A stretch of DNA of 64,000 bases from Minisyncoccota bacterium (GTDB lineage Bacteria > Patescibacteriota > Minisyncoccia > JAHIHE01 > JAGLIN01), in assembly GCA_041661265.1 (NCBI GenBank), contig JBAZUT010000001.1, positions 197,310 to 261,309 of the forward strand, written 5' to 3'. A model generated the notes under the pieces. The model was not told the DNA's origin. It saw only the letters and a list, made by a program, of their open reading frames with translations, and did no database searches. The position numbers and the translations under genes are program-made. Positions 9,103-49,902 of this stretch are shown here, one piece after another. Numbering within the stretch: the first letter of the stretch is position 1; each line of letters starts with the position of its first letter.

Positions 9103-9185
9103 TTATCTTCCTCCATTGGACAATTTTAATTAATTATACCGGCAAAGTCAAATAAAAAAAAAGCAAGATGCGTTGATCCTGCTAT

Positions 9186-9305
9186 TTACGCTCCGCTATA
9201 GAAGCTTCTTCTCGCTTCCCCTACCGGAGAATCGTCTTTCTGATCCCATTCAAAACCTTTTTCAACAGCTTTTTCTTTTTCCTGTTCTTGTTTTCCGTTC
9301 TTCAT
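9186..9305 (-). CDS. small acidic ORF (39 aa) with strong RBS
   Basis: Not in the track because it is under 60 aa. AGGAGGAAT-N5-ATG. MKNGKQEQEKEKAVEKGFEWDQKDDSPVGEARRSFYSGA. Lies between two co-oriented small genes. Confidence 0.35.
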   Translation of the reverse strand: MKNGKQEQEKEKAVEKGFEWDQKDDSPVGEARRSFYSGA

Positions 9306-9317
9306 CACTCATTCCTC

Positions 9318-9554
9318 CTAGTACGCTATTCCCATGCTTTCCAGCTCATTCTTCGCCAAAATCAATTTTTTGGCAAGTTCTTTTCTATCCCTTTCGATCT
9401 CTTTCAGTTTTTCTTCTATCGCGTCTTTTTCTATTATCTTTTTATTTGTGCGAAGTATTCCGAGGATCTCCGGAAGCCTTTCTTTCCCGAAAAGATCCTC
9501 TATATCCCGTACATTCAAAGATAATAATTTTCCAAGACTGATGCAATTTGCCAT
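9318..9554 (-). CDS. hypothetical coiled-coil protein (78 aa)
   Basis: Charged heptad-like sequence. Its stop overlaps the RBS of the next small ORF. Confidence 0.45.
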   Translation of the reverse strand: MANCISLGKLLSLNVRDIEDLFGKERLPEILGILRTNKKIIEKDAIEEKLKEIERDRKELAKKLILAKNELESMGIAY

Positions 9555-9598
9555 TATTTATCCCTCCTGTTTTAAAGCAGCCCATCTTTTCCCGATGG

Positions 9599-9676
9599 AC
9601 CGCTTTTATGTGTTTAAAATGTTTTTTAAATACACAAAAACCGTCCATCCGGAACGGATGAGCTCAAACATGATGA
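9599..9676 (+). repeat. about 60-80 bp direct repeat copy A flanking the HAD phosphatase gene
   Basis: ACCGCTTTT..(hairpin)..CACACAAAAACCGTCCA..ATGATGA. Related copy at 10155-10217. Confidence 0.5.
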
Positions 9677-9716
9677 TAGGTTTTTGCGATCTAATGTCAT
9701 TTTATTATTTATGGGA

Positions 9717-10112
9717 TCAAGTTATTTCAAAATTCAGTTTGCCGGTAAATTTGGTCGCCTTGATATCTCTGTCGTCTATATAGTGATAGTTCCCTCCCCT
9801 GGGCTTTCCGAAGATGACTTTATGGAATTTGAACCCATGCGCCTTGAGCCATTTTTCGGTTACCCGCCTGTGCTCTTCGGTCCTGGAAGTGAAAAACGTA
9901 ACTATATGACCCTCATTGAACCATTCATTGATCTTCTCTTTCGATCCCTCGATTTCCCCCGCCGACGGCATCCTTTCGGGCTGTTCATTCGGAATATCTT
10001 CGCAGACGACTCCGTCAATGTCTATTATAATATTACTAAAACCGTCTTTAAGCCGCGGACTTTTGTTTTTGTCGGGACTTACAAGCACATCCGTACGATC
10101 CTGCATCTTCAT
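9717..10112 (-). CDS. HAD-superfamily phosphatase (small, 131 aa; nucleotidase/IIIA-like)
   Basis: Motif I IIIDIDGVVCED (DxDGV). Downstream FFTSRTEEHR and K..GKPRGG..Y.IDD motifs of HAD phosphatases. Confidence 0.6.
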   Translation of the reverse strand: MKMQDRTDVLVSPDKNKSPRLKDGFSNIIIDIDGVVCEDIPNEQPERMPSAGEIEGSKEKINEWFNEGHIVTFFTSRTEEHRRVTEKWLKAHGFKFHKVIFGKPRGGNYHYIDDRDIKATKFTGKLNFEIT

Positions 10113-10154
10113 TATTATATGTTATTTTTAAAAAACAGCTCACCTTCTTTGTGA

Positions 10155-10217
10155 ACCGCTTTTGCGTATCTTTTGATGTATGTCCTAGACACGCAAAAAC
10201 CGTCCAACTGATGATGA
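10155..10217 (+). repeat. direct repeat copy B flanking the HAD phosphatase gene
   Basis: ACCGCTTTT..(hairpin)..CACGCAAAAACCGTCCA..ATGATGA. About 70% identical to 9599-9676. Confidence 0.5.
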
Positions 10218-10360
10218 ACTGGATGACGAAGACAATATTAGTTTTCTTTCAATAGGGCTCATGGCTGAATGTTATTATGCATCGCATTAATATTCTACAC
10301 TTTCTATTGATCATGTCAAGTGATTTTTTGGAATTAACACACAGCGCTTATATTACAAAA

Positions 10361-10382
10361 GACACCGCAATAAAGCGGTGTC
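10361..10382 (-). terminator. intrinsic terminator (GACACCGC-loop-GCGGTGTC then T-run on the minus strand)
   Basis: 8-bp GC-rich stem followed by TTTTGTAAT on the minus strand. Sits 22 nt after the stop of the minus-strand small ORF. Confidence 0.55.
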
Positions 10383-10403
10383 TATCAATTTTCAAATTGG
10401 GTG

Positions 10404-10511
10404 CTACATGACGCTTGCAGAATATGCCACCACGCCATATAATGTCCCCGAAAGGACCATTATGGTTACGCTTAGCGCCATGTCCAGCATGGAATCAATG
10501 AATCTTTCCAT
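10404..10511 (-). CDS. cryptic small hydrophobic peptide (35 aa) MERFIDSMLDMALSVTIMVLSGTLYGVVAYSASVM
   Basis: Not in the track because it is under 60 aa. Single predicted TM helix. Own terminator downstream. Upstream palindrome GCATACAATAGATTGTATGC at 10533-10552. An alternative 38-aa ORF exists on the plus strand at 10408-10524. Confidence 0.25.
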   Translation of the reverse strand: MERFIDSMLDMALSVTIMVLSGTLYGVVAYSASVM

Positions 10512-10634
10512 ATTATTTGCTTAATTAATTAAGCATACAATAGATTGTATGCTCACCCGTGCAATAAGTATAGCACACTTTCATACATAAATCAATAGCC
10601 CATTAAGCTGATTCTAAGCTGATTCTTGCAGCAG

Positions 10635-10663
10635 TTGACATTATGATGTTTTTGTGCTATAAT
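10635..10663 (+). promoter_or_regulatory. sigma70-consensus promoter (TTGACA-N17-TATAAT) for the radical SAM gene
   Basis: TTGACA at 10635-10640 and TATAAT at 10658-10663. AGGAGG RBS at 10688-10693. Confidence 0.6.
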
Positions 10664-10703
10664 CAAACATCAAACAAAAATACTTTTAGGAGGTAAGAAT
10701 TAA

Positions 10704-11720
10704 ATGACTGCAGTAGAAACCATTCAGGCTGTATTGGAGGGTGGCGGAAACCTCCTCTACAATTATGCATGTTTCCGAATATTGCGAACCCCTTTGGTCT
10801 ACAATATCGAGATAACCGGCGATTGTCCGCTGGATTGCGAACATTGCTATTTCCACAGGGAATGGAACTGTGGAAAAAATAGAGACCTCGAGGACGAATA
10901 TTGGATGAAAGTCGTCAACGAGAATAGCGACAAACCTTTTGTTTTCACAGGAGGAGAGCCGGCGCTTCGCATGTCGCTCGTAAAAAAAGCTTTTGGAGTT
11001 CTTGGAAGAAGGTTGATATTGATCAGCAACGGAACCATAAAATTCCCGCTGGCGATTGAAACCAGGGTCTTCATAAGCCTTGATGCAGCCACAGAAGAGC
11101 TGCATGACAGTATAAGAAGAAAACCCGGCACATTTAAAAAGATCCTCAAAAACATCAGAGGAGATAAGCGAGTGATACTGGCTCCGACGATCTCAATGAC
11201 GAATTACAAAGAGATCGAGAAGCTGGTCCAACTGGCCCGCGAACTGGGAGTTTATGGCATAACTTTCAGCCTTTATACTCCTGAGAAGAAAAAACATCCC
11301 GCCGATCCGGATGATCAGCTGACACTTCAAGGCAAAGAACTTCTTGAAACAGCGGGAATGCTGAGAAAAGTTCTTCGGGAGAACCCTGATATTGTCTTTT
11401 TGACAGAAGGGATGATCGACCTGTTCGTCACAAAGGAGCATGTTCCGAACTGCAGCCTGAAAGCCAGTCCGGAAAAACCCGGATGGGTCAGATCGCGGAA
11501 TCCCGCGGATATGGATAAATATCCTTGCGTTATCGGAGGAAATGTAGACTGCGAGAAATGCGGCTGCAACATTCCGATAAACATGGCTGATCTGAAAGAC
11601 CAGGCATGGAGGATGCTGACCTTCAGAAAGAACGATGCCAAAAACATCGTAAGAGTGGCAAAAATGTTCACTCTCCAGAAGGAATATATCTCTCCATCAG
11701 ACGAAACAGATCCTGCTTAA
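10704..11720 (+). CDS. radical SAM enzyme with C-terminal Cys-rich SPASM/twitch-like domain
   Basis: CPLDCEHCY (CxxxCxxC) at residues about 41-48. GGEP glycine-rich SAM motif. C-terminal Cys cluster YPCVIGGNVDCEKCGC. 338 aa. Confidence 0.8.
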   Translation: MTAVETIQAVLEGGGNLLYNYACFRILRTPLVYNIEITGDCPLDCEHCYFHREWNCGKNRDLEDEYWMKVVNENSDKPFVFTGGEPALRMSLVKKAFGVLGRRLILISNGTIKFPLAIETRVFISLDAATEELHDSIRRKPGTFKKILKNIRGDKRVILAPTISMTNYKEIEKLVQLARELGVYGITFSLYTPEKKKHPADPDDQLTLQGKELLETAGMLRKVLRENPDIVFLTEGMIDLFVTKEHVPNCSLKASPEKPGWVRSRNPADMDKYPCVIGGNVDCEKCGCNIPINMADLKDQAWRMLTFRKNDAKNIVRVAKMFTLQKEYISPSDETDPA

Positions 11721-11755
11721 CAGCGGGATCCTTTTTATTTATGAAATATCGGCAT

Positions 11756-12340
11756 CTAATTTTTTATTTCTTCCCTTATTGACTTAGCGAGAAACCCAAA
11801 CTCGACATAACCTGAATCCCTGTTAATATGACCCGCATTCCGGAGAACTGCCGGCTCAACGTTCAGATCTCTTGCGAGGTCTATCCCCTTTTGGACCGGA
11901 ACATATGGATCATTGTCTGAATTGATGACATAGAAATGCATGCAGTTGCGCTTTATTTTGTTCCAATCAAAAGCCTTCACCGTAAAAGTTCTATTCAGTA
12001 CGTCAAAGTCGGGATTATCGAGAAGTCCCGTAAAGCCCGCAACAAAATATGCGGCTCTGACCGGATGATCGATCCTTTCTAGCACTGAAAGCAGGAACGC
12101 GGTTCCAAGGCTATGCCCGACAATAATGGCATCCTTGTTCAGATATCGTTCATATTCGTTGAAAATTTCCAGCCACTTTTCAAGAGACTGGCCCAGGGGC
12201 GTCGGAAATCTCGGGACAAAAACCTGGCACCCATATCCTTCAAGTTCCGACTTGAGCCATGGAAACCAATTACCTTCGGGGCTTCCCCCTGTACCGTGAA
12301 CTATGACAACATTCGCCATCGATAAAAGATTAATTTGCAT
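11756..12340 (-). CDS. alpha/beta serine hydrolase, RBBP9/YdeN-like
   Basis: VIVHGTGGSPEGNWFPWL near the N-terminus, nucleophile elbow GHSLG, and a C-terminal HINRDSGY-type motif. 194 aa. Confidence 0.6.
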   Translation of the reverse strand: MQINLLSMANVVIVHGTGGSPEGNWFPWLKSELEGYGCQVFVPRFPTPLGQSLEKWLEIFNEYERYLNKDAIIVGHSLGTAFLLSVLERIDHPVRAAYFVAGFTGLLDNPDFDVLNRTFTVKAFDWNKIKRNCMHFYVINSDNDPYVPVQKGIDLARDLNVEPAVLRNAGHINRDSGYVEFGFLAKSIREEIKN

Positions 12341-12452
12341 TATATGATAATTCTATAATCAAGGGACCGAACGGTCAAACTTTGTGCGGAACTCCGAAAT
12401 TCAACGCGCACAAAAACATGTCCCGGGCATCCGAATAAGAAAAAAAGCGCTT

Positions 12453-12776
12453 TTATTCTTGCGCTTCGATCATCTTTGGAAAATATTTTTTCAATATAGC
12501 ATACACAATAATGGCTATTAGCGATAACAGGTAGAAGCTCCTTGAGAGCTGGGATCCCTTTATCGCGAACAGGATCACCGACAATATCGCAAGCAGCAGG
12601 CACAGGTCTTTCAGAACCGCCGACATCTTTCTTTTTAAATCGTCTTCGGCAGGCAACATCATTATAAAAACGATGATTATGATAAAATAAACCGTCTCTA
12701 ATATTGCCGCGACCTGCTGCATGTCTACCGTATTCGGGATGCTATATGCCAAATCCATTAATTGCGAAAGGTCCAT
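12453..12776 (-). CDS. membrane protein, hypothetical (107 aa)
   Basis: Two or three hydrophobic helices. No motif recognised. Confidence 0.45.
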   Translation of the reverse strand: MDLSQLMDLAYSIPNTVDMQQVAAILETVYFIIIIVFIMMLPAEDDLKRKMSAVLKDLCLLLAILSVILFAIKGSQLSRSFYLLSLIAIIVYAILKKYFPKMIEAQE

Positions 12777-43452: not shown

Positions 43453-46400
43453 CTACTTTATTTCAAAGTAATCTCCCCTTGTACGCCCGAAATTTTCCGG
43501 AAAATACATTTCGGAAACTACGGCCGGGAGGTGATGGAACTTTCCGGGAACCAGAACCCTGACATAATAGTCGTACTCATATTCACCCTCGCTTAATCCT
43601 TCAGTGAAAAGGAATAGCCGGTCATTCCTGTATTCAACCATATCCGGATGGAGTTTGCCGTCATTATAGTAATCCCACCAATAGTTGTCCCTGTTATTGT
43701 TCCCGTCCTCTGCGATCAAAGACTGATCCTCGGTAGCCAGATTGAAATTGACAAGCTCTGTTCCTGCCGGTATGAAATCCTCGACAGAGACAAAATTCCT
43801 TTGTGCCGGAACAAGGAGCTTTATATGTCCCCTGAGAACGTCTCCGACCTTCGCTTCTTTTATCGGATTCTCATTCTTCTTGTCATCGATCGCAAAGAAA
43901 TCCCTTTCGATCGTGAAGCCCTCGTCCCGAGGAGGTATCTGATTGATGGGGAGAAAATATTTCAGCGAGATGTCATAATAGAAATTATTATTCAACTCAT
44001 TGTTGTCCTTTTTCCGGAACAATATGCTGCCGATCGAACCGAATTTCATTTCACCGACAGGCACTTCAAGGCTGTTTTGGCTGAGAACGGTTTCAGGCGT
44101 ATAACCGAATGACTGCTTCTCAACTCCATCCAGAAGGATCGTAAGATCGAAATTGGACTCATTCTCCTTCTGCCAATTTATATAATCCGTAAACGCATCG
44201 ATCACCGAAAGCGTGTTGTTCGTCGATCCCCACGCTCCATCTTTGCTCCTCGAGCGGAGGAGCCATCTCATCAGACGGTCCAGGATCTCATTATCTTTCT
44301 TATCCTCGACCAGGACCTTGAGAAGCATCGCCGTATCCTTGATCGGCGTTGCATAATATTGCCAGGTCACATTCTTCGCAGGCGGAAGGAAAGCGCCCCT
44401 TGAATCGATATCGATCCTGTTCTCCAGGATATTGAAGACCTTCGCTTTATAATTTTTTCCGAATGCCGCCTCATTCTCAACGAGAATGGAAGCCAGGGTC
44501 ACAAGCGAAGTGTTGCTTATCTCTTCGTTCAGATATTTGTCATCGTTATTTATCGCCTTGATATAACTCGTCAGATTGTCGCTTATCTTCCCGTAATCAC
44601 TAAGTTTTGTCAGAGTGCCGAAGGCAAGTATCATAAAATCTCTGTCTTTCTGGAGATCCGTATCATAGCTGACCTTGTTGTTGATGTAATTAAAGGACCG
44701 CCTCAAACTATCCTCGTTTACCGCATAGCCGGCATCCTTCAGACTTTTTATGGTACTTGCAACATGCAAAGTCAGATAAACATTAGGCAAGCTGTCCGGA
44801 TAATAGCCGAAGCTTCCGTCGCCTTTCTGATTCAGATAGAGCCTTGAAAGTCCAATATCAACAACTTCATCGACCGTATATTCCCTCTGATCGAATTCTA
44901 TATTCTTGAGATTGAATTTGTCCCCGATGTTCTTGAGATTCAGCCCGCGCTTCACCACTGCGATAGAATCGAGTTTGCTGGCAACCTGCTCGCTGCATCC
45001 ATAGGGATAGCCGAGAAGATAATTAAGGGCATCAGAAATGAAGACTGCAAGGGTCGCGCTCGTCTTTATCGTCATCTCTCCCCTGTCCTTGACCACATTA
45101 TCCGGGAGATATGAGAACTCGAAGACTTCCGGATCCTTGGAGTATCCGCTCGTAGCCGTGGCTTCATACGTCTCGTTTCTCGCCACCTTGATCGTATTCT
45201 CAACGGTATCCTCATAGTCCTTACTCTTGGCGGCCAGCGTAAATGTGTGAGTTCCATCCTGTTTATCGGAAGATGCCGCTACATTGAAATATATCGTATT
45301 GGATTCTTTAGCGGCAAGCGTTATATCCTTTACACTTTGATCATTTTTAAGCGCAAGCGTTTCGCTGGAAAAGCTGACAGAAAGATCCAGCGCATTATTC
45401 GTCTGATTGAAGATCTTTGCGCCGATCATAAATTCATCTCCTGGGATCGCAAAACGGGGCTTGAGAGGCACCACCATTAGGTCTTTGCGGCTCGTGAATT
45501 CGCTGTAACCCACTCCAAGCTTCGTATCTTTGGTTATACCGATGGATTCAACCTGCCACGAAGTGAGATTGTCCGGTAATTTGAACTTAACCTGAGCCTT
45601 TCCATCGGCGTCCGTAACAACGACTGCCTGCCAGAATGCCGTATCTTTGAATTCGCCTCTTTTTTTCTTTGCAAGATCCTCCGGCTCTCCTCCGCCTCCG
45701 CCCTTGGTCTCGCCCGGCACATTCACTTCATACAATATATCTTTCATGCTGCTTGAGGTTGAGATCGTGAGCGGAAATCCTCCATAAAAGAACACTACCG
45801 GATTCTTCTTCGGATTGCCCTTCAAAGCAAGAACGCTGAGGTCCGCAACGGAAACCGAAAATTCGGTTTCAGCCGGCCTGCCCTCAAAGTCCTTGGATTC
45901 AAAATCTATGGTCACTTCTTCGCCCGGAAGATATTCGGTCTTGTTGGTCTTGGCCGATATATCCAATTCTTTCTTTTCGGTGTCCACCTGAAAATCAAGC
46001 TTGGCGAACCTTACCTCCGGATCCGGTGAAATGAGGATCGCGGTCACGAAGAAGTTGGGAATATATTCCGGAAGAATGTCGAACTTATAGTCGAAAAGGT
46101 TCTGATTCACATCGATTATTTTGTAATCGAATATTTTTCCTCTTTCGATGCTTATAAGCACCTTTGCCCTTTCATAAGGAGATTTGATGACGATCTCGCC
46201 CTGGTCGCCCACCTTCAGACTGTTCTTTGCTGTGATCATTTCGAGCGCATTGTCATTCGAAACCCTAACATCGACTTGCGCCTCCCCATAAACATACATG
46301 TTGTAATTGCTCTCGATCGAATTGCCCTTGGCATCCTGGCCCGAAACCGTAAGCTCATATTCCCCTTCCTCGGCAAGCGACAGCGAATCCTTCCAGTTTC

Positions 46401-49400
46401 CGTTCTGATCCGTACCGATCTCCTGTTCGCTCACGGAAGTAAGTTTCCTTTCCCAATTGTTATAATATCCTCCATCGACTTCCTGCCTCTTGTTCTGCAC
46501 CCATTCCACTTTGCTCACTTTCAATTTCACGCCGCCGATCTGGACATTCTTTCCCATGGTATCCACCGATTTCACTTTCACATCGAATCTCTGATTCTTT
46601 CCCACAAAATAGTCGCTCGCACTTATTCCGAGATAGAAGTCCCCTTTATGCACAATGAAAGATTTCTGGCTCGAAACGGACTGGCCGTTCCTGTTCTTCA
46701 CCGTGATATACGCAACGATTATTTTGCTTTTCGTATTTTTTTCGTCCTTGAAGATCTTCTCAAGGTCCAGATTGTAGGATATCTTCGCTTTTCCGGCCTG
46801 ATCCAAGCTGGCCTTGCTTCGAAGGATGAATTTGTTGCCATAACTGCAATCCCAGTAGCAATAATACCAGGGCATGCCGAAGTTGAAATATTCATCCTGA
46901 TATCTGTCGAAATAGTAATCTTGGCTGGCAAGCTCATATTCAACCTCCCCTCCTTCAAGGGGAGCGCCAAAATAATAACTGGCATCAATGTTCAGATTCA
47001 TCGTATCCTTAGAGACATATTCCTCTTTGTCGCTTATCACGTCAACTTTGAACGGAGCCGGAACATATTCCTCCACGTCGAAAAAGGCGCTGCTCCCCTT
47101 GGCGTCCATCCTATAAGTTCCGAGCGGAGATTTTTCATCAAGTATGATCTTCGTATTGAACGTTCCAAAATCATTTACATCCAGGTCCTGGTTGAATATT
47201 TCCTCGCCTTTGCTGTTATAGATCTTGAAAGGCATCTTGCTGTCTTTGATTATCTCATAATTCGCGTCATAACCCAGCCTGTAAAGCCCTTTGATGTTCA
47301 CCTCGTCCAGCGGTTTATAGATGGGCCGATCGGTATACATATATATTTTCTGCGACTGCATGGCGGTCGAACCATATTGGAATTTGTCATAGGAGCTCGT
47401 TCCGGTTATGACAGTACTGTCACTTCCCTTTGTCACAATGGCTCCACTGAGGTTGCTTACAGCTCCCATTTCCGCAATTCCCTGGCCGTTCGTCACAAAT
47501 GAACTTTCTTTCTTCAGGGCCAAATTATTGATCTGAGAATACAACTGGATATTTGCGCCCTCGATCGCTCCAAGCGTTTTCATATCAGTCACCCAATAGA
47601 CATTCTTGAGCCCCTTCTTCTGATCGTCCGTAAGATCGCTGTTGCTGTAATAGTTTCCGGAATCAACCTCAACCTTCTTTTCCACTATGCCCATATTGGT
47701 GACGGAGAGGTATGTTCTTTCATAGACCATCCTGTTCTCTCCCCATCTTTCCCTGTATTTCGGATTTGAGAAGGTCAGGATATAATGTCCCATAGGATCT
47801 GAGACATAATCGCCAAGGTCGATCTTGAAATAGTTCTTTATCCAATATTTTTTGGGCAGGGTTATCTTCTTGTTTATGCTGTCATCGCAGATGGATCCTG
47901 GAGTGGGGCTCGTGTAATTTAGACCATGTCCGGACATATGATCAAGAATGGTTTCCGCGCTTATTTCGCAGATATTCATATCCACATAGTCCATATTCTC
48001 AACGGCATATGTGAGCTTCGTTTTGTCGGGAGTTGTCACATTGTGATTCTGCTGATAATGGAAAAAATTCAGATAATCTTCGGGAATCGGTCCTGTTTTG
48101 AAATTTCTTTTCACGACCGTTTCGCGCGAGAAATTATCAACTGCCTTGATCTCGACCGAATAATCGGTTTCCGGCATGAGGCGATATCCGATCCTCGTTT
48201 CAAACTCCCCCGCCTTGCAGATGTAATAACCCCAATTCTGCTCAGGAACAAGAACAGGATTCTGCCAATTCCGGAATTCATATTCAGGAGAGATATTCAG
48301 ATATGAAGCCGCATCTGCGGCGCTTACGGAATTGATGGGACTGTTGGCGCAGATCACAAATTCGTTAAGGCTTGTTCCATTGGCCCAATCACCGGGCACC
48401 GTGCTCAGGACCCTGAGATCAGGAATGACATTTATGTCTTCGATGATCGGAGAATTATTCAGAACAAGGCCGCTTGTGTTCTTCACTGCGTTCAGATATA
48501 TTTTCAACACATCATAATTCTTTATATTCGCAGAATCGAAAGTGAAATATATTTTTTTCAGGTCTGTCTCTTTTTCGCAATCCTGGCCGGAATCAGCAAG
48601 CGCCTGATCAGCGTCCTCTTTGCACTTTTCGCCATAATTCATACTGATCTTTTTGTCGGCATCGATGACGCTGTTGGTCAGGTCGATATCTTCATAGAAC
48701 TCGATCCAGAGCTTTCCCTGCGAATCGAAAAATGTCGGGGTTGTGAAACTTGACCTGTCGGATGTGGCGCTGATGCCGCTTATTATATCCGTGACCTGGA
48801 TGACAGCTTCCCTCGGCTCTTCAAGATTTATATCTCCTTCCTGGGGATAGGCGCGCGCGATCGACACCCGATAGGAATTTTTGAAATCCCAAAGCTTTTC
48901 GCGTCCGAACTGGTCAAACTTGTTGTACACGAATACCCTCGATTGATTGATCACGCGATCGTATTTTTTCGTCTCTTTATTATAGACATTGTCATATCCG
49001 TATTCAGCGATGAATTCCGCCTCTTTGTTGTCGGTTAGATCCATGACCTTTATTTCCGCTGCCGTCCTCGCGAGATCGACCGGCTGATTGAAATCTATGG
49101 ACACGGGATCGCTATAGACCGTAATCCCCTCGGAGATCCCGTTATACCTCAATACTCTGGTCTTGAACTGACTCTCAAAGCCTTCGATGTTTAAACCGTC
49201 CAGCGAATAAAATTCCGGCCTGACCTTTACATCATAATTTGATGAGCGAACGAGCCTCTCCGTCGGAATGAATTGCAACGTCCTTGTCCCGATCCATTTG
49301 AACTTTCCTTCGGTCTTCGGAGTTATCTCGATCGGAATATCGAAACTTTCAAGAACATCGAGTGTTGTGATCGGAACCATTGGTCTGTTGAACATCACGG

Positions 49401-49902
49401 TAATTTCCGACTCTTCATTGGTCTCGGAATCTTTTTTGGGGAATACGGTCAAAACCTTCGGATCATCCACGACCAGGAAATCGCTTCCTATCGTTTTTCC
49501 GTCTATCTTCATCAGAACCGAATAATACCTCCCGAGCCTCATTTCGGATCTTTCCGGACTGAATACGATCTTATCGGGGCTTCCGCTCTCGATCCAAATT
49601 CCTTTCACCGCCGGAAATATTTCGACGCTTTTTTGCGCCTCTTCCTTCGTAACTTTCAGATTCGGCGGAAGGTTAATGGCAATATTCGCGCTCTGGGATA
49701 TCTTGTCGCTGGTCAAAGCGAATATATTGGCATACTCCACTTTGGGAATAGAATAACCCGATTCCGGTTTTCCGCGCAACAAAAAAAGCGCTCCGGCGAT
49801 CGTGATGACAAACAGCGCCATCAGGATCGCAAAAGCCCTTTTCCTGCTTTTATTTTTTCCTGATAAAAAACTTTTAAAACCTGCGAACAAATCAATGTTC
49901 AT
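43453..49902 (-). CDS. alpha-2-macroglobulin family protein (2149 aa) with N-terminal membrane anchor and thioester motif
   Basis: GYPYGCSEQ (CxEQ thioester). Many beta-rich MG-like repeats. TED-like helical region (AWGSTNNTLSVIDAF). N-terminal TM. Confidence 0.75.
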   Translation of the reverse strand: MNIDLFAGFKSFLSGKNKSRKRAFAILMALFVITIAGALFLLRGKPESGYSIPKVEYANIFALTSDKISQSANIAINLPPNLKVTKEEAQKSVEIFPAVKGIWIESGSPDKIVFSPERSEMRLGRYYSVLMKIDGKTIGSDFLVVDDPKVLTVFPKKDSETNEESEITVMFNRPMVPITTLDVLESFDIPIEITPKTEGKFKWIGTRTLQFIPTERLVRSSNYDVKVRPEFYSLDGLNIEGFESQFKTRVLRYNGISEGITVYSDPVSIDFNQPVDLARTAAEIKVMDLTDNKEAEFIAEYGYDNVYNKETKKYDRVINQSRVFVYNKFDQFGREKLWDFKNSYRVSIARAYPQEGDINLEEPREAVIQVTDIISGISATSDRSSFTTPTFFDSQGKLWIEFYEDIDLTNSVIDADKKISMNYGEKCKEDADQALADSGQDCEKETDLKKIYFTFDSANIKNYDVLKIYLNAVKNTSGLVLNNSPIIEDINVIPDLRVLSTVPGDWANGTSLNEFVICANSPINSVSAADAASYLNISPEYEFRNWQNPVLVPEQNWGYYICKAGEFETRIGYRLMPETDYSVEIKAVDNFSRETVVKRNFKTGPIPEDYLNFFHYQQNHNVTTPDKTKLTYAVENMDYVDMNICEISAETILDHMSGHGLNYTSPTPGSICDDSINKKITLPKKYWIKNYFKIDLGDYVSDPMGHYILTFSNPKYRERWGENRMVYERTYLSVTNMGIVEKKVEVDSGNYYSNSDLTDDQKKGLKNVYWVTDMKTLGAIEGANIQLYSQINNLALKKESSFVTNGQGIAEMGAVSNLSGAIVTKGSDSTVITGTSSYDKFQYGSTAMQSQKIYMYTDRPIYKPLDEVNIKGLYRLGYDANYEIIKDSKMPFKIYNSKGEEIFNQDLDVNDFGTFNTKIILDEKSPLGTYRMDAKGSSAFFDVEEYVPAPFKVDVISDKEEYVSKDTMNLNIDASYYFGAPLEGGEVEYELASQDYYFDRYQDEYFNFGMPWYYCYWDCSYGNKFILRSKASLDQAGKAKISYNLDLEKIFKDEKNTKSKIIVAYITVKNRNGQSVSSQKSFIVHKGDFYLGISASDYFVGKNQRFDVKVKSVDTMGKNVQIGGVKLKVSKVEWVQNKRQEVDGGYYNNWERKLTSVSEQEIGTDQNGNWKDSLSLAEEGEYELTVSGQDAKGNSIESNYNMYVYGEAQVDVRVSNDNALEMITAKNSLKVGDQGEIVIKSPYERAKVLISIERGKIFDYKIIDVNQNLFDYKFDILPEYIPNFFVTAILISPDPEVRFAKLDFQVDTEKKELDISAKTNKTEYLPGEEVTIDFESKDFEGRPAETEFSVSVADLSVLALKGNPKKNPVVFFYGGFPLTISTSSSMKDILYEVNVPGETKGGGGGEPEDLAKKKRGEFKDTAFWQAVVVTDADGKAQVKFKLPDNLTSWQVESIGITKDTKLGVGYSEFTSRKDLMVVPLKPRFAIPGDEFMIGAKIFNQTNNALDLSVSFSSETLALKNDQSVKDITLAAKESNTIYFNVAASSDKQDGTHTFTLAAKSKDYEDTVENTIKVARNETYEATATSGYSKDPEVFEFSYLPDNVVKDRGEMTIKTSATLAVFISDALNYLLGYPYGCSEQVASKLDSIAVVKRGLNLKNIGDKFNLKNIEFDQREYTVDEVVDIGLSRLYLNQKGDGSFGYYPDSLPNVYLTLHVASTIKSLKDAGYAVNEDSLRRSFNYINNKVSYDTDLQKDRDFMILAFGTLTKLSDYGKISDNLTSYIKAINNDDKYLNEEISNTSLVTLASILVENEAAFGKNYKAKVFNILENRIDIDSRGAFLPPAKNVTWQYYATPIKDTAMLLKVLVEDKKDNEILDRLMRWLLRSRSKDGAWGSTNNTLSVIDAFTDYINWQKENESNFDLTILLDGVEKQSFGYTPETVLSQNSLEVPVGEMKFGSIGSILFRKKDNNELNNNFYYDISLKYFLPINQIPPRDEGFTIERDFFAIDDKKNENPIKEAKVGDVLRGHIKLLVPAQRNFVSVEDFIPAGTELVNFNLATEDQSLIAEDGNNNRDNYWWDYYNDGKLHPDMVEYRNDRLFLFTEGLSEGEYEYDYYVRVLVPGKFHHLPAVVSEMYFPENFGRTRGDYFEIK

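What the first reader, a model, noticed from the sequence alone, without database searches (positions are those of the whole stretch)
10361..11720. Stand-alone radical SAM / SPASM-twitch enzyme with cryptic small hydrophobic peptide ORFs and a palindrome just upstream: candidate peptide-modification locus
The 338-aa protein has a canonical CxxxCxxC cluster plus a C-terminal Cys-rich (CxxCxC) auxiliary-cluster region, as in SPASM/twitch peptide maturases. It is driven by a textbook TTGACA-N17-TATAAT promoter and a strong RBS. About 200 bp upstream lies a 35-aa hydrophobic ORF on the minus strand (10404-10511). It has its own strong intrinsic terminator (10361-10382) and is preceded by a 20-bp palindrome (10533-10552). 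An alternative 38-aa ORF sits on the plus strand at 10408-10524, co-oriented with the rSAM gene. Neither peptide has Cys, so this would not be a sacti/ranthipeptide. Possible alternatives are epimerisation, cross-linking of non-Cys residues, or an unrelated small membrane toxin.
Basis: partly seen in the sequence, partly recalled or inferred. Interest (0 to 1): 0.6.

Follow-up and report, generated by a model that had tools for sequence, protein, structure and literature searches.

The report
Stand-alone radical SAM enzyme, separate mini-gene
An uncultured Paceibacterota (CPR) bacterium carries a lone radical-SAM enzyme of an unstudied family next to a real 35-residue membrane-peptide gene, but nothing beyond adjacency in three close strains links the two, so this is probably not a peptide-modification locus.

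Summary
The 338-aa protein is a radical SAM enzyme. Its C-terminal Cys motif (C250, C275, C283-x2-C286-x-C288) aligns with the first cysteines of the SPASM motif, but about 30 residues are missing. It is therefore a compact, one-cluster, twitch-like domain. It matches no curated family. Its best structural matches are BlsE, SkfB and anSME.

The gene is monocistronic, with its own consensus promoter and terminator. It belongs to an uncharacterised family of about 300-aa proteins found on bacterial and archaeal contigs. Across 26 family loci no neighbour recurs, no similar small ORF is present, and two loci leave no room for one. The protein has no RiPP recognition element.

The 35-aa minus-strand ORF is a real gene. 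Its promoter hexamers, 5' hairpin and terminator are conserved in three strains. Substitutions pile up at third codon positions, and dN/dS is 0.11. It is an orphan and is transcribed divergently from the rSAM gene.

Best reading: two independent transcription units. The rSAM substrate is unknown and not encoded next door. The RiPP reading keeps about 8% probability.

The parts
10704..11720 (+). Radical SAM gene, 338 aa. SAM-cluster motif C41/C45/C48. Compact twitch-like auxiliary-cluster motif C250, C275, C283, C286 (invariant or nearly so in 66 relatives) plus C288 (56 of 66).
10635..10663 (+). Sigma-70 consensus promoter of the rSAM gene: TTGACA-17-TATAAT with an extended -10 TG.
   Evidence: 12/12. 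The hexamers are identical in L012 and L099 while the spacer varies.
10688..10694 (+). Shine-Dalgarno AGGAGGT, 9 nt before the ATG.
   Evidence: Conserved in L012 and L099 within an otherwise 21-33% diverged 5' UTR. SD motifs are rare in this window: 5 of 33 genes.
11709..11730 (+). Intrinsic terminator of the rSAM gene, overlapping its stop codon. This makes the gene monocistronic.
   Evidence: 9-bp stem, 5 GC pairs, tail CTTTTTATTT.
10404..10511 (-). Small protein gene, 35 aa: MERFIDSMLDMALSVTIMVLSGTLYGVVAYSASVM. It has an acidic N-terminus followed by one hydrophobic, transmembrane-like segment.
   Evidence: The peptide is identical in L012 and 89% identical in L099, with four conservative changes. 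dN 0.051, dS 0.449. It is an orphan: only two 90%-identity clusters among 5.8 billion proteins.
10360..10383 (-). Intrinsic terminator of the small gene.
   Evidence: The stem is invariant in the three strains; the only two changes are in the loop.
10567..10595 (-). Promoter of the small gene: TTGATT-17-TATACT with an extended -10 TG. In L099 the -10 box is TATAAT.
   Evidence: Hexamers are conserved and the spacer is variable.
10532..10553 (-). Stem-loop at the predicted 5' end of the small gene's mRNA.
   Evidence: In L099 the apex changes and loses 1 nt while the 8-bp stem is kept. That pattern fits an RNA hairpin better than a dimer operator.
10519..10534 (.). Perfect 16-bp palindrome GCTTAATTAATTAAGC, 7 nt upstream of the small ORF's start. 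It carries TAA in all six reading frames.
   Evidence: Invariant in the three strains. Function not established.
10408..10524 (+). Alternative 38-aa ORF. It is most likely the antisense shadow of the minus-strand gene, with which it shares third codon positions.
   Evidence: (dN/dS 0.23 against 0.11 for the minus frame; six aa changes in L099). No plus-strand promoter was found, and the terminator hairpin lies 25 nt upstream of its ATG. Codon usage alone mildly favours it.

Best explanation
The region holds two independent, back-to-back transcription units in a Candidatus Paceibacterota genome.

(1) The rSAM unit is monocistronic and carries strong expression signals. The enzyme belongs to an uncharacterised family of about 300-aa proteins scattered over CPR bacteria and archaea. 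Mechanism, inferred from the superfamily:
- The C41/C45/C48 [4Fe-4S] cluster reductively cleaves SAM.
- The resulting 5'-deoxyadenosyl radical abstracts a hydrogen atom from the substrate.
- A single auxiliary Fe-S cluster sits in a shortened SPASM-derived (twitch-like) domain, held by C250, C275, C283 and C286, with C288 spare. It either accepts the electron or anchors the substrate.

The substrate is not encoded next door. From the enzyme's size, the lack of a peptide-binding domain, the basic pI of the family and the nearest folds, I infer a soluble or macromolecular substrate made elsewhere in the cell. My first guess is a nucleoside, nucleotide or sugar type of compound. An RNA or a protein is the second guess.

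(2) The second unit is a transcript of about 200 nt running from about 10560 to about 10355 on the minus strand. It encodes a 35-aa single-pass membrane peptide. It begins with a stabilising 5' stem-loop and ends at a strong terminator. Its role is unknown, and no evidence ties it to the enzyme.

Shown: the gene structures, the selection on them, the homology and fold class, and the absence of conserved context. Inferred: cluster binding, the chemistry, the substrate class, and translation of the peptide.
For: Organism and annotation:
- Bacterial markers in the window are PolA, RuvA, PBP1A and PilB. NCBI labels the protein as from a Candidatus Paceibacterota MAG.
- Pfam gives only PF04055 and Fer4_12. 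No NCBIfam model comes near its cutoff. The same holds for all 66 relatives scanned.

The family:
- An exhaustive HMMER search found 30 representatives at E<1e-30 and 596 at E<1e-10. Most are about 300 aa and most match roughly residues 25-300, which include the Cys region.
- C250, C283 and C286 are invariant in 66 sequences. C275 is present in 65 of 66 and C288 in 56 of 66.
- Aligned with PF13186-containing proteins, C250 and C275 fall on the CX9-15GX4C pair and C283/C286 on the CX2C. The roughly 30-residue segment between them is absent. The motif definition is from PMC6231123.
- The AF2 model has pLDDT 90.5. It places C250 before and C275 after a short beta element, with a helix at 289-305.
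- Nearest folds are BlsE, SkfB, anSME, SuiB, ChlB, CteB, viperin and MoaA.

Separate units:
- The rSAM gene has its own promoter and terminator.
- In 26 family loci no neighbour cluster occurs in more than 3. The Pfam tally of neighbours is heterogeneous.
- No small-ORF homologues were found near other family members.
- Median family pI is 9.07.
- The small gene has conserved promoter hexamers, hairpin stem and terminator stem. Its substitutions show third-position periodicity, and its dN/dS of 0.11 resembles the rSAM's 0.09.
- The spacer between the two promoters (10601-10634) is 53-56% diverged and contains an indel, so there is no shared operator.
Against: - The linkage of the two genes is kept in all three available strains (window, L012, L099). 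These strains are close (rSAM 92-93% aa identity), so this says little either way.
- The two closest outgroup lineages (P0002 at 42% and P0007 at 35% identity) have an M50 membrane protease directly downstream on the same strand. This recalls the rSAM-protease pairing of some RiPP operons.
- The top fold hits include RiPP maturases (SkfB, CteB, SuiB).
- No positive evidence identifies the substrate. The basic pI and the fold neighbours are weak indicators.
- Codon usage slightly favours the plus-strand ORF.
- Translation of the 35-aa ORF is not demonstrated. It has no Shine-Dalgarno motif, but 28 of 33 genes in this window also lack one.
Confidence: 0.62

Rival explanations
1. RiPP-like pair. 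The rSAM modifies the divergently encoded 35-aa hydrophobic peptide, or the 38-aa plus-strand product. The chemistry could be epimerisation or a non-Cys cross-link. The product would be a membrane-active peptide.
For: - Adjacency from back-to-back promoters is kept in three strains.
- The enzyme belongs to the SPASM/twitch lineage, and the top fold hits include SkfB, CteB and SuiB.
- The closest outgroup homologues are followed by an M50 membrane protease.
- From memory, the B. subtilis epipeptide operon pairs the rSAM YydG with a membrane protease, YydH. This was not checked here.
- The enzyme is similar in size to YydG, which also lacks a separate large N-terminal domain.
Against: - There is no RRE: only about 27 aa lie before beta-1. 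SkfB, CteB and SuiB all have one (PMC6231123).
- No similar or recurrent small ORF lies near 25 other family loci, and L020 and L021 have no room for one.
- The profile comparison with a YydG-family protein aligns only the rSAM core, residues 31-190.
- The window has no protease or transporter. The M50 of the relatives has no homologue in the 64 kb, and it gets only weak generic M50 hits.
- The small gene has its own promoter and terminator, and the inter-promoter spacer is unconstrained.
- The peptide looks like a plain transmembrane helix with no leader/core organisation.
Confidence: 0.08
2. The small unit is a type I toxin-antitoxin-like toxin or a non-coding small RNA. It would not be a structural small membrane protein, and it would be unrelated to the rSAM.
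For: - The product would be a short hydrophobic peptide from a highly structured transcript. The folding z-score is -3.3, with 1 of 200 shuffles as stable.
- The unit has a 5' hairpin and a strong terminator.
- Against L012 the synonymous divergence is low: dS 0.14 against 0.38 for the rSAM. This hints at constraint at the RNA level.
- The ORF has no Shine-Dalgarno motif.
Against: - No plus-strand (antisense) promoter overlaps the unit.
- There is a single copy in 64 kb.
- There is no Rfam match.
- Against L099 the ORF behaves like an ordinary coding gene: dS is 0.45, about equal to the rSAM's 0.46, dN/dS is 0.11, and 8 of 12 changes are at third positions.
- The peptide's C-terminus lacks the charged tail that I recall as common in type I toxins.
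Confidence: 0.15
3. The rSAM is an accessory, horizontally moving enzyme that acts on a nucleotide, for example in a viperin-like antiviral role. It would not be a core metabolic enzyme.
For: - The family is patchy and rare. Within the limits of the tools' sensitivity, neither the 5.8-billion-protein search nor the scan of 185,579 species genomes found more than a handful of relatives closer than about 35% identity.
- In relatives the gene is inserted into housekeeping neighbourhoods: hpf-[rSAM]-secA, and rpmB...[rSAM]-M50.
- The gene is a stand-alone cassette with its own promoter, SD and terminator, in a genome that rarely uses SD.
- Weak pVip hits cover the core.
- Viperin, MoaA and BlsE, all nucleotide or nucleoside enzymes, are among the nearest folds.
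Against: - The viperin model scores 28.5 bits against a cutoff of 180.
- From memory, viperins have no auxiliary-cluster cysteines.
- There are no defence-system neighbours in PADLOC.
- There is no phage-specific signal.
- Nothing identifies the substrate.
Confidence: 0.1

Closest known systems
SkfB (B. subtilis sporulation killing factor sactisynthase; twitch-domain rSAM; PDB 6efn)
   Different: SkfB has an N-terminal RRE of about 100 aa and sits in an operon with its precursor SkfA. The window protein has neither. SkfB's last two ligands follow helix alpha-2'. Here the CxxCxC triad directly follows the hairpin and the helix segment is missing.
BlsE (cytosylglucuronate decarboxylase, blasticidin S pathway; PDB 7vob)
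   Different: Identity is only 20%. The NCBIfam BlsE model scores 30.7 bits against a cutoff of 400. BlsE lies in a biosynthetic gene cluster, and none is present here.
SPASM-domain rSAM enzymes (anSME, CteB, SuiB, PqqE; Pfam PF13186)
   Different: There are 5 cysteines, not 7. About 30 residues between the GX4C and the CX2C are missing. PF13186 does not match the window protein or any of 66 relatives. The domain can therefore hold one auxiliary cluster, not two.
YydG/EpeE epipeptide epimerase with its yydFGHIJ operon
   Same: It has a similar length (about 320 aa) and no large N-terminal domain. From memory, an rSAM-plus-membrane-protease pairing exists there, as in relatives L006 and L013.
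Bacterial small membrane proteins and type I toxins (under 50 aa, one transmembrane helix)
   Same: The product is 35 aa with one hydrophobic helix. The unit is an independent promoter-terminator cassette with a structured leader.
   Different: No antisense RNA promoter was found. There is a single copy. There is no known family, and the C-terminus is uncharged.

Membership tests
Radical SAM superfamily (PF04055) | CX3CX2C cluster motif in a partial TIM barrel, plus the GGEP SAM-binding motif | tested here: met
   C41-x3-C45-x2-C48 and G83-G84-E85-P86 are invariant in 66 relatives. PF04055 E 2e-14, 54.5 bits against a cutoff of 29.5. The fold was confirmed.
SPASM domain (PF13186 / TIGR04085) | Seven-Cys motif CX9-15GX4C-gap-CX2CX5CX3C-gap-C that binds two auxiliary clusters (PMC6231123) | tested here: not met
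   Only 5 C-terminal Cys are present. PF13186 gives no hit at E<=1 for the window protein and none at E<=0.01 for 66 relatives. The gap segment is deleted.
Twitch domain (truncated SPASM, one auxiliary cluster) | A Cys before and a Cys after a beta-hairpin, plus two further Cys, giving ligands for one Fe-S cluster. The domain is homologous to the first part of SPASM. | tested here: met
   C250 and C275 align with the SPASM CX9-15GX4C pair, and C283/C286 with the CX2C. All four are invariant or nearly so. The model shows a beta element at 262-265 between C250 and C275 and a helix at 289-305. The layout is atypical because no alpha-2' helix lies between the Cys pairs.
Twitch domain (truncated SPASM, one auxiliary cluster) | Actual binding of an auxiliary Fe-S cluster | not testable with these tools
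   This needs Fe/S analysis and EPR or Moessbauer spectroscopy on a variant lacking the SAM cluster.
RiPP radical SAM maturase locus | An N-terminal RiPP recognition element (winged helix-turn-helix, about 80-100 aa), or a stand-alone PqqD-like partner | tested here: not met
   Only one helix (residues 2-27) precedes beta-1 at 32-36. No PqqD-like neighbour was found.
RiPP radical SAM maturase locus | A precursor-peptide gene adjacent to the maturase and conserved across the enzyme family | tested here: not met
   The small ORF lies next to the rSAM only in three strains of at least 92% identity. There is no homologue or recurrent small ORF in 25 other loci. L020 and L021 have under 45 bp of flanking space.
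RiPP radical SAM maturase locus | An accompanying protease, transporter or immunity gene | tested here: not met
   The window neighbours are a HAD-like phosphatase, a serine hydrolase, a small membrane protein, an NTPase and a GNAT. An M50 protease occurs only in the P0002 and P0007 lineages and is absent from the window.
YydG/EpeE peptide epimerase family | Full-length homology that includes the C-terminal cluster region | tested here: not met
   hhalign covers residues 31-190 only.
Prokaryotic viperin (pVip; NF038283) | A score above the family cutoff, and a C-terminal NTP-binding extension without auxiliary Cys | tested here: not met
   28.5 bits against a cutoff of 180. The PADLOC pVip hits are core-only, E 4e-8.
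MoaA / BlsE / HpnH / AhbD / NirJ and other curated rSAM equivalogs | A score at or above the NCBIfam curated cutoff | tested here: not met
   The best hit is AhbD at 48.8 bits against a cutoff of 500. All hits cover only residues of about 30-195.
Type I toxin-antitoxin | A small hydrophobic toxin ORF plus an overlapping antisense RNA with its own promoter | tested here: inconclusive
   A hydrophobic 35-aa ORF is present. No plus-strand promoter-like site overlaps it. There is no paralogue in the window. Toxicity is not testable here.
Bona fide protein-coding small gene | Purifying selection with codon periodicity, plus its own expression signals | tested here: met
   10 of 14 variable sites are at third positions. 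dN/dS is 0.11. The promoter hexamers and the terminator stem are conserved. The strand assignment (minus) rests on the signals and on the lower dN/dS. Translation itself was not shown.

The most novel reading that the evidence does not exclude
The compact five-Cys 'mini-twitch' rSAM family is a functionally new enzyme class shared by CPR bacteria and archaea. In this Paceibacterota lineage its substrate is the divergently encoded 35-aa hydrophobic peptide. Modification without an RRE, for example epimerisation or a C-C cross-link of aliphatic residues, would give a membrane-active product. This would be a new RiPP class, and the first from the Candidate Phyla Radiation that I am aware of (no literature check was made for this).
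Probability: 0.07. Interest if true: 0.65.

Novelty: new member of a known kind. Interest (0 to 1): 0.3.

Why it matters
The enzyme belongs to an unnamed radical SAM family of several hundred 50%-identity clusters. No curated model or studied member turned up in the libraries searched. Its auxiliary-cluster domain is a shortened form of SPASM, found mainly in uncultured CPR bacteria and archaea. Defining the family's Cys signature, C-x(20-28)-C-x(5-7)-C-x2-C-[G]-C, gives rSAM enzymologists a tractable target of about 300 aa. It also shows that a SPASM-like Cys motif next to a small ORF is not sufficient evidence for a RiPP locus. The 35-aa gene is a well-supported small-protein gene in a CPR genome. 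Beyond that the locus is ordinary: two unrelated neighbouring genes.

Tried and rejected
- Archaeal origin. I suspected this at first from the GC content and the long intergenic regions. I rejected it because PolA, RuvA, PBPs and PilB are present and NCBI labels the protein as Paceibacterota.
- Known RNA family in 10100-10720. Rfam gives only sub-threshold hits.
- Conserved gene neighbourhood. All-against-all clustering of neighbours in 26 loci and Pfam tallies show nothing recurrent. Methylmalonyl-CoA mutase/B12 genes appear in 3 related loci only, and M50 in 2 lineages only.
- Small-ORF conservation. blastp-short and tblastn of both peptides against all family loci give only chance-level hits.
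- Paralogues of the small gene or of its palindromes in the window. None were found.
- Base-pairing of the small transcript with the rSAM 5' UTR. It is not better than shuffles (p about 0.07).
- Defence-island or prophage context. PADLOC and PHROGs give only generic rSAM-core hits.
- YydG-like epimerase. Only the core aligns.
- Codon-usage scoring to pick the coding strand. It mildly favours the plus ORF, but it is low-powered at 35 codons and is contradicted by the promoter and terminator orientation and by dN/dS.
- The genome-contig scan found no close homologue in 185,579 species genomes.
- The afdb50 fold library was unavailable.
- I had no access to the model coordinates, so Cys-Cys distances could not be measured.
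Full report
OBSERVATION

- The 338-aa ORF at 10704-11720 (+) carries C41-x3-C45-x2-C48 and a C-terminal C283-x2-C286-x-C288.
- A 12/12 sigma-70 consensus promoter, TTGACA-17-TATAAT with an extended -10 TG, lies at 10635-10663. AGGAGGT lies at 10688-10694.
- The 35-aa minus-strand ORF (10404-10511) and the 38-aa plus-strand ORF (10408-10524) both exist, and neither has Cys.
- The hairpin at 10360-10383 has a 9-bp stem with 6 GC pairs and is followed by a T-run on the minus strand.
- The palindrome AGCATACAAT-AG-ATTGTATGCT lies at 10532-10553. Only 1 of 100 shuffles gave a match, even with up to 3 mismatches allowed.

I add three features:
- an overlapping perfect palindrome, GCTTAATTAATTAAGC, at 10519-10534;
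- a minus-strand promoter, TTGATT-17-TATACT with TG, at 10595-10567;
- an intrinsic terminator for the rSAM gene at 11709-11730.

The rSAM gene is therefore monocistronic. The small ORF has a complete promoter-leader-ORF-terminator cassette of its own, transcribed divergently.

ORGANISM

The window encodes bacterial DNA polymerase I, RuvA, class A PBPs, PilB and TyrRS. The exact rSAM protein is in NCBI as 'MAG: radical SAM protein [Candidatus Paceibacterota bacterium]'. Bacterial promoter and terminator logic therefore applies. Shine-Dalgarno motifs are rare here, in 5 of 33 genes checked. The missing SD of the small ORF is thus not informative, and the strong SD of the rSAM gene is unusual for this genome.

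THE ENZYME

Pfam finds only the Radical_SAM core and Fer4_12, with no SPASM hit even at E<=1. The best NCBIfam hit, AhbD, scores 48.8 bits against a cutoff of 500, and all hits cover only residues of about 30-195.

Word-indexed searches of 5.8 billion proteins found five relatives with significant matches along most of their length. An exhaustive HMMER search then revealed a wider family. It has 30 representatives at E<1e-30 and 596 at E<1e-10. Most are about 300 aa and most match roughly residues 25-300. In a 66-sequence alignment C41, C45, C48, C250, C283 and C286 are invariant. C275 is present in 65 of 66 and C288 in 56 of 66. The family signature is C-x(20-28)-C-x(5-7)-C-x2-C-G-C. None of the 66 matches PF13186 or reaches the cutoff of any curated family listed.

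Aligned with PF13186-bearing proteins, C250 and C275 fall on the CX9-15GX4C pair of the SPASM motif and C283/C286 on its CX2C. The roughly 30-residue segment that separates them in SPASM proteins is absent. PMC6231123 defines SPASM by seven Cys and two clusters, and twitch as a truncated SPASM with one cluster. PMC9012708 gives the same definitions. By these, the domain is a compact twitch-like domain.

CONTEXT ACROSS THE FAMILY

I collected 25 further family loci.
- Clustering all neighbouring ORFs shows no neighbour family in more than 3 of the 26 loci.
- The Pfam tallies are heterogeneous. They include bacterial SecA and archaeal-type S3Ae and aRF1, so the family spans both domains.
- In L015 the gene sits between hpf and secA. 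In L006 and L013 it sits between tRNA/rpmB and a small M50 protease. In L014 it follows 2-phosphoglycerate kinase and iPGM.
- In L020 and L021 it is flanked within 45 bp on both sides by unrelated genes: FKBP and a 1091-aa protein, and a dehydrogenase and a 111-aa protein.
- Neither small peptide has a homologue, and no small ORF family recurs, within 900 bp of any other family member.
- The M50 protease of the two nearest lineages has no counterpart in the 64-kb window and gives only weak generic hits.
- A profile comparison with a YydG-family epimerase aligns only the core.
- PADLOC and PHROGs give only core-level rSAM hits.

THE SMALL GENE

Two diverged strains carry the same arrangement. 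They are L012 (rSAM 93% aa identity) and L099 (92%, found through the peptide search).

Divergence is strongly patterned.
- Spacers and UTRs are 17-56% diverged.
- The small ORF is 2.8% diverged against L012 and 11.1% against L099.
- Its leader with the palindromes is 2.2% and 8.9% diverged.
- The terminator changes only in its loop.

Both promoters keep their hexamers while the spacers vary. In L099 the minus-strand -10 box becomes a perfect TGnTATAAT.

Of 14 distinct variable sites in the ORF, 10 are at third codon positions (p about 0.004, my binomial calculation). The minus and plus ORFs share third positions, so the periodicity cannot assign the strand. The minus frame has the lower dN/dS: 0.051/0.449 against 0.076/0.327. 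It shows four conservative replacements (R3K, T23A, A29V, V34I). It is also the only frame with a promoter and a correctly placed terminator. Codon usage mildly prefers the plus frame, and I weight this least.

The 10532-10553 palindrome changes only at its apex in L099, including a 1-nt deletion, while keeping an 8-bp stem. This fits a 5' RNA stem-loop rather than a spacing-sensitive operator. The transcript folds more stably than shuffles, with z = -3.3.

The peptide has an acidic N-terminus followed by 24 hydrophobic residues. It is an orphan, with two 90%-identity clusters in 5.8 billion proteins, both from this lineage. It is single-copy in the window.

INTERPRETATION

The evidence best fits two independent transcription units. 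The first encodes an uncharacterised, one-auxiliary-cluster (twitch-like) radical SAM enzyme whose substrate is encoded elsewhere. The second encodes a genuine 35-aa membrane peptide of unknown role.

The chemistry is inferred from the superfamily and was not shown here: SAM cleavage at the C41/C45/C48 cluster, hydrogen abstraction, and an auxiliary cluster acting as electron acceptor or substrate anchor. My guess of a nucleoside, nucleotide or sugar substrate, or RNA, rests only on four weak indicators: the size, the lack of an RRE, the basic family pI (median 9.07) and the fold neighbours.

The RiPP reading is not excluded. Adjacency holds in three strains, the enzyme has RiPP-maturase fold relatives, and an M50 protease follows the nearest outgroups. 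It fails three of the defining tests, so I give it about 8%. A type I toxin or sRNA role for the small unit gets about 15%. A mobile nucleotide-modifying accessory role for the enzyme gets about 10%.

NOVELTY AND VERDICT

The enzyme is a new, unnamed member of the known SPASM/twitch radical SAM kind, with an unusually compact Cys domain. The small gene is a credible orphan small-protein gene. The proposed functional coupling is unsupported. Interest is modest (0.3).

Noticed in passing
window 9555-9665 and 10113-10290 (minus strand): Two consecutive minus-strand genes, the 78-aa ORF at 9318-9554 and the HAD-like 131-aa ORF at 9717-10112, are preceded by a shared leader element. It consists of a hairpin, then GGACGGTTTTTG(T/C)GT, then AAAAGCGGT(C/T)CA, then GCTG(C/T)TTT, then the ATG. 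The first two boxes can pair with each other, giving an attenuator-like alternative structure. The copy at 10113-10290 is only 4.5-6% diverged between strains, although neutral sites are about 40% diverged. There is no Rfam match.
   Followed up: partly
window 8800-12776: Shine-Dalgarno motifs are rare in this window (5 of 33 genes). Many genes have a TATAAT-like box within about 25 nt of the start codon, which suggests short-leader or leaderless mRNAs. Four of the five SD-led genes cluster here: the 100-aa ORF at 8800-9102, the 78-aa ORF at 9318-9554, the rSAM gene, and the 107-aa membrane protein at 12453-12776. This may be an acquired or specially expressed islet.
   Followed up: partly
window 10605-10626: An 11-bp tandem duplication, AAGCTGATTCT x2, lies just upstream of the rSAM -35 box. 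It is single-copy in strains L012 and L099. The surrounding spacer (10601-10634) is the most variable stretch of the region, at 53-56% divergence.
   Followed up: partly
window 10519-10534: The invariant palindrome GCTTAATTAATTAAGC contains TAA in all three frames of both strands, so it is a six-frame translational stop. It sits 7 nt upstream of the small ORF's start codon. Whether this matters is unknown.
   Followed up: no
window 10459-10486 (minus strand): A second promoter-like site, TGGACA-16-CATAAT (10/12), lies inside the small ORF on the same strand. It could give a shorter RNA of about 95 nt ending at the same terminator.
   Followed up: no
L006 1394-3143, L007, L008, L013 819-2620: In the two nearest outgroup lineages the rSAM gene is followed on the same strand by a small M50 intramembrane metalloprotease of about 210 aa. 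It is preceded by rpmB (L28) and a stretch between about 460 and 870 in L006 that looked tRNA-like but was not scanned for tRNAs. The rSAM promoter region there (TTTGTGCTAAAAT) resembles that of the window (TTTGTGCTATAAT).
   Followed up: partly
window 4557-7568 and 43453-49902: Two very large predicted surface proteins are present. One is a 1003-aa S8 subtilase with fn3, MAM-like, Big_9 and cadherin-like repeats. The other is a 2149-aa ORF.
   Followed up: no
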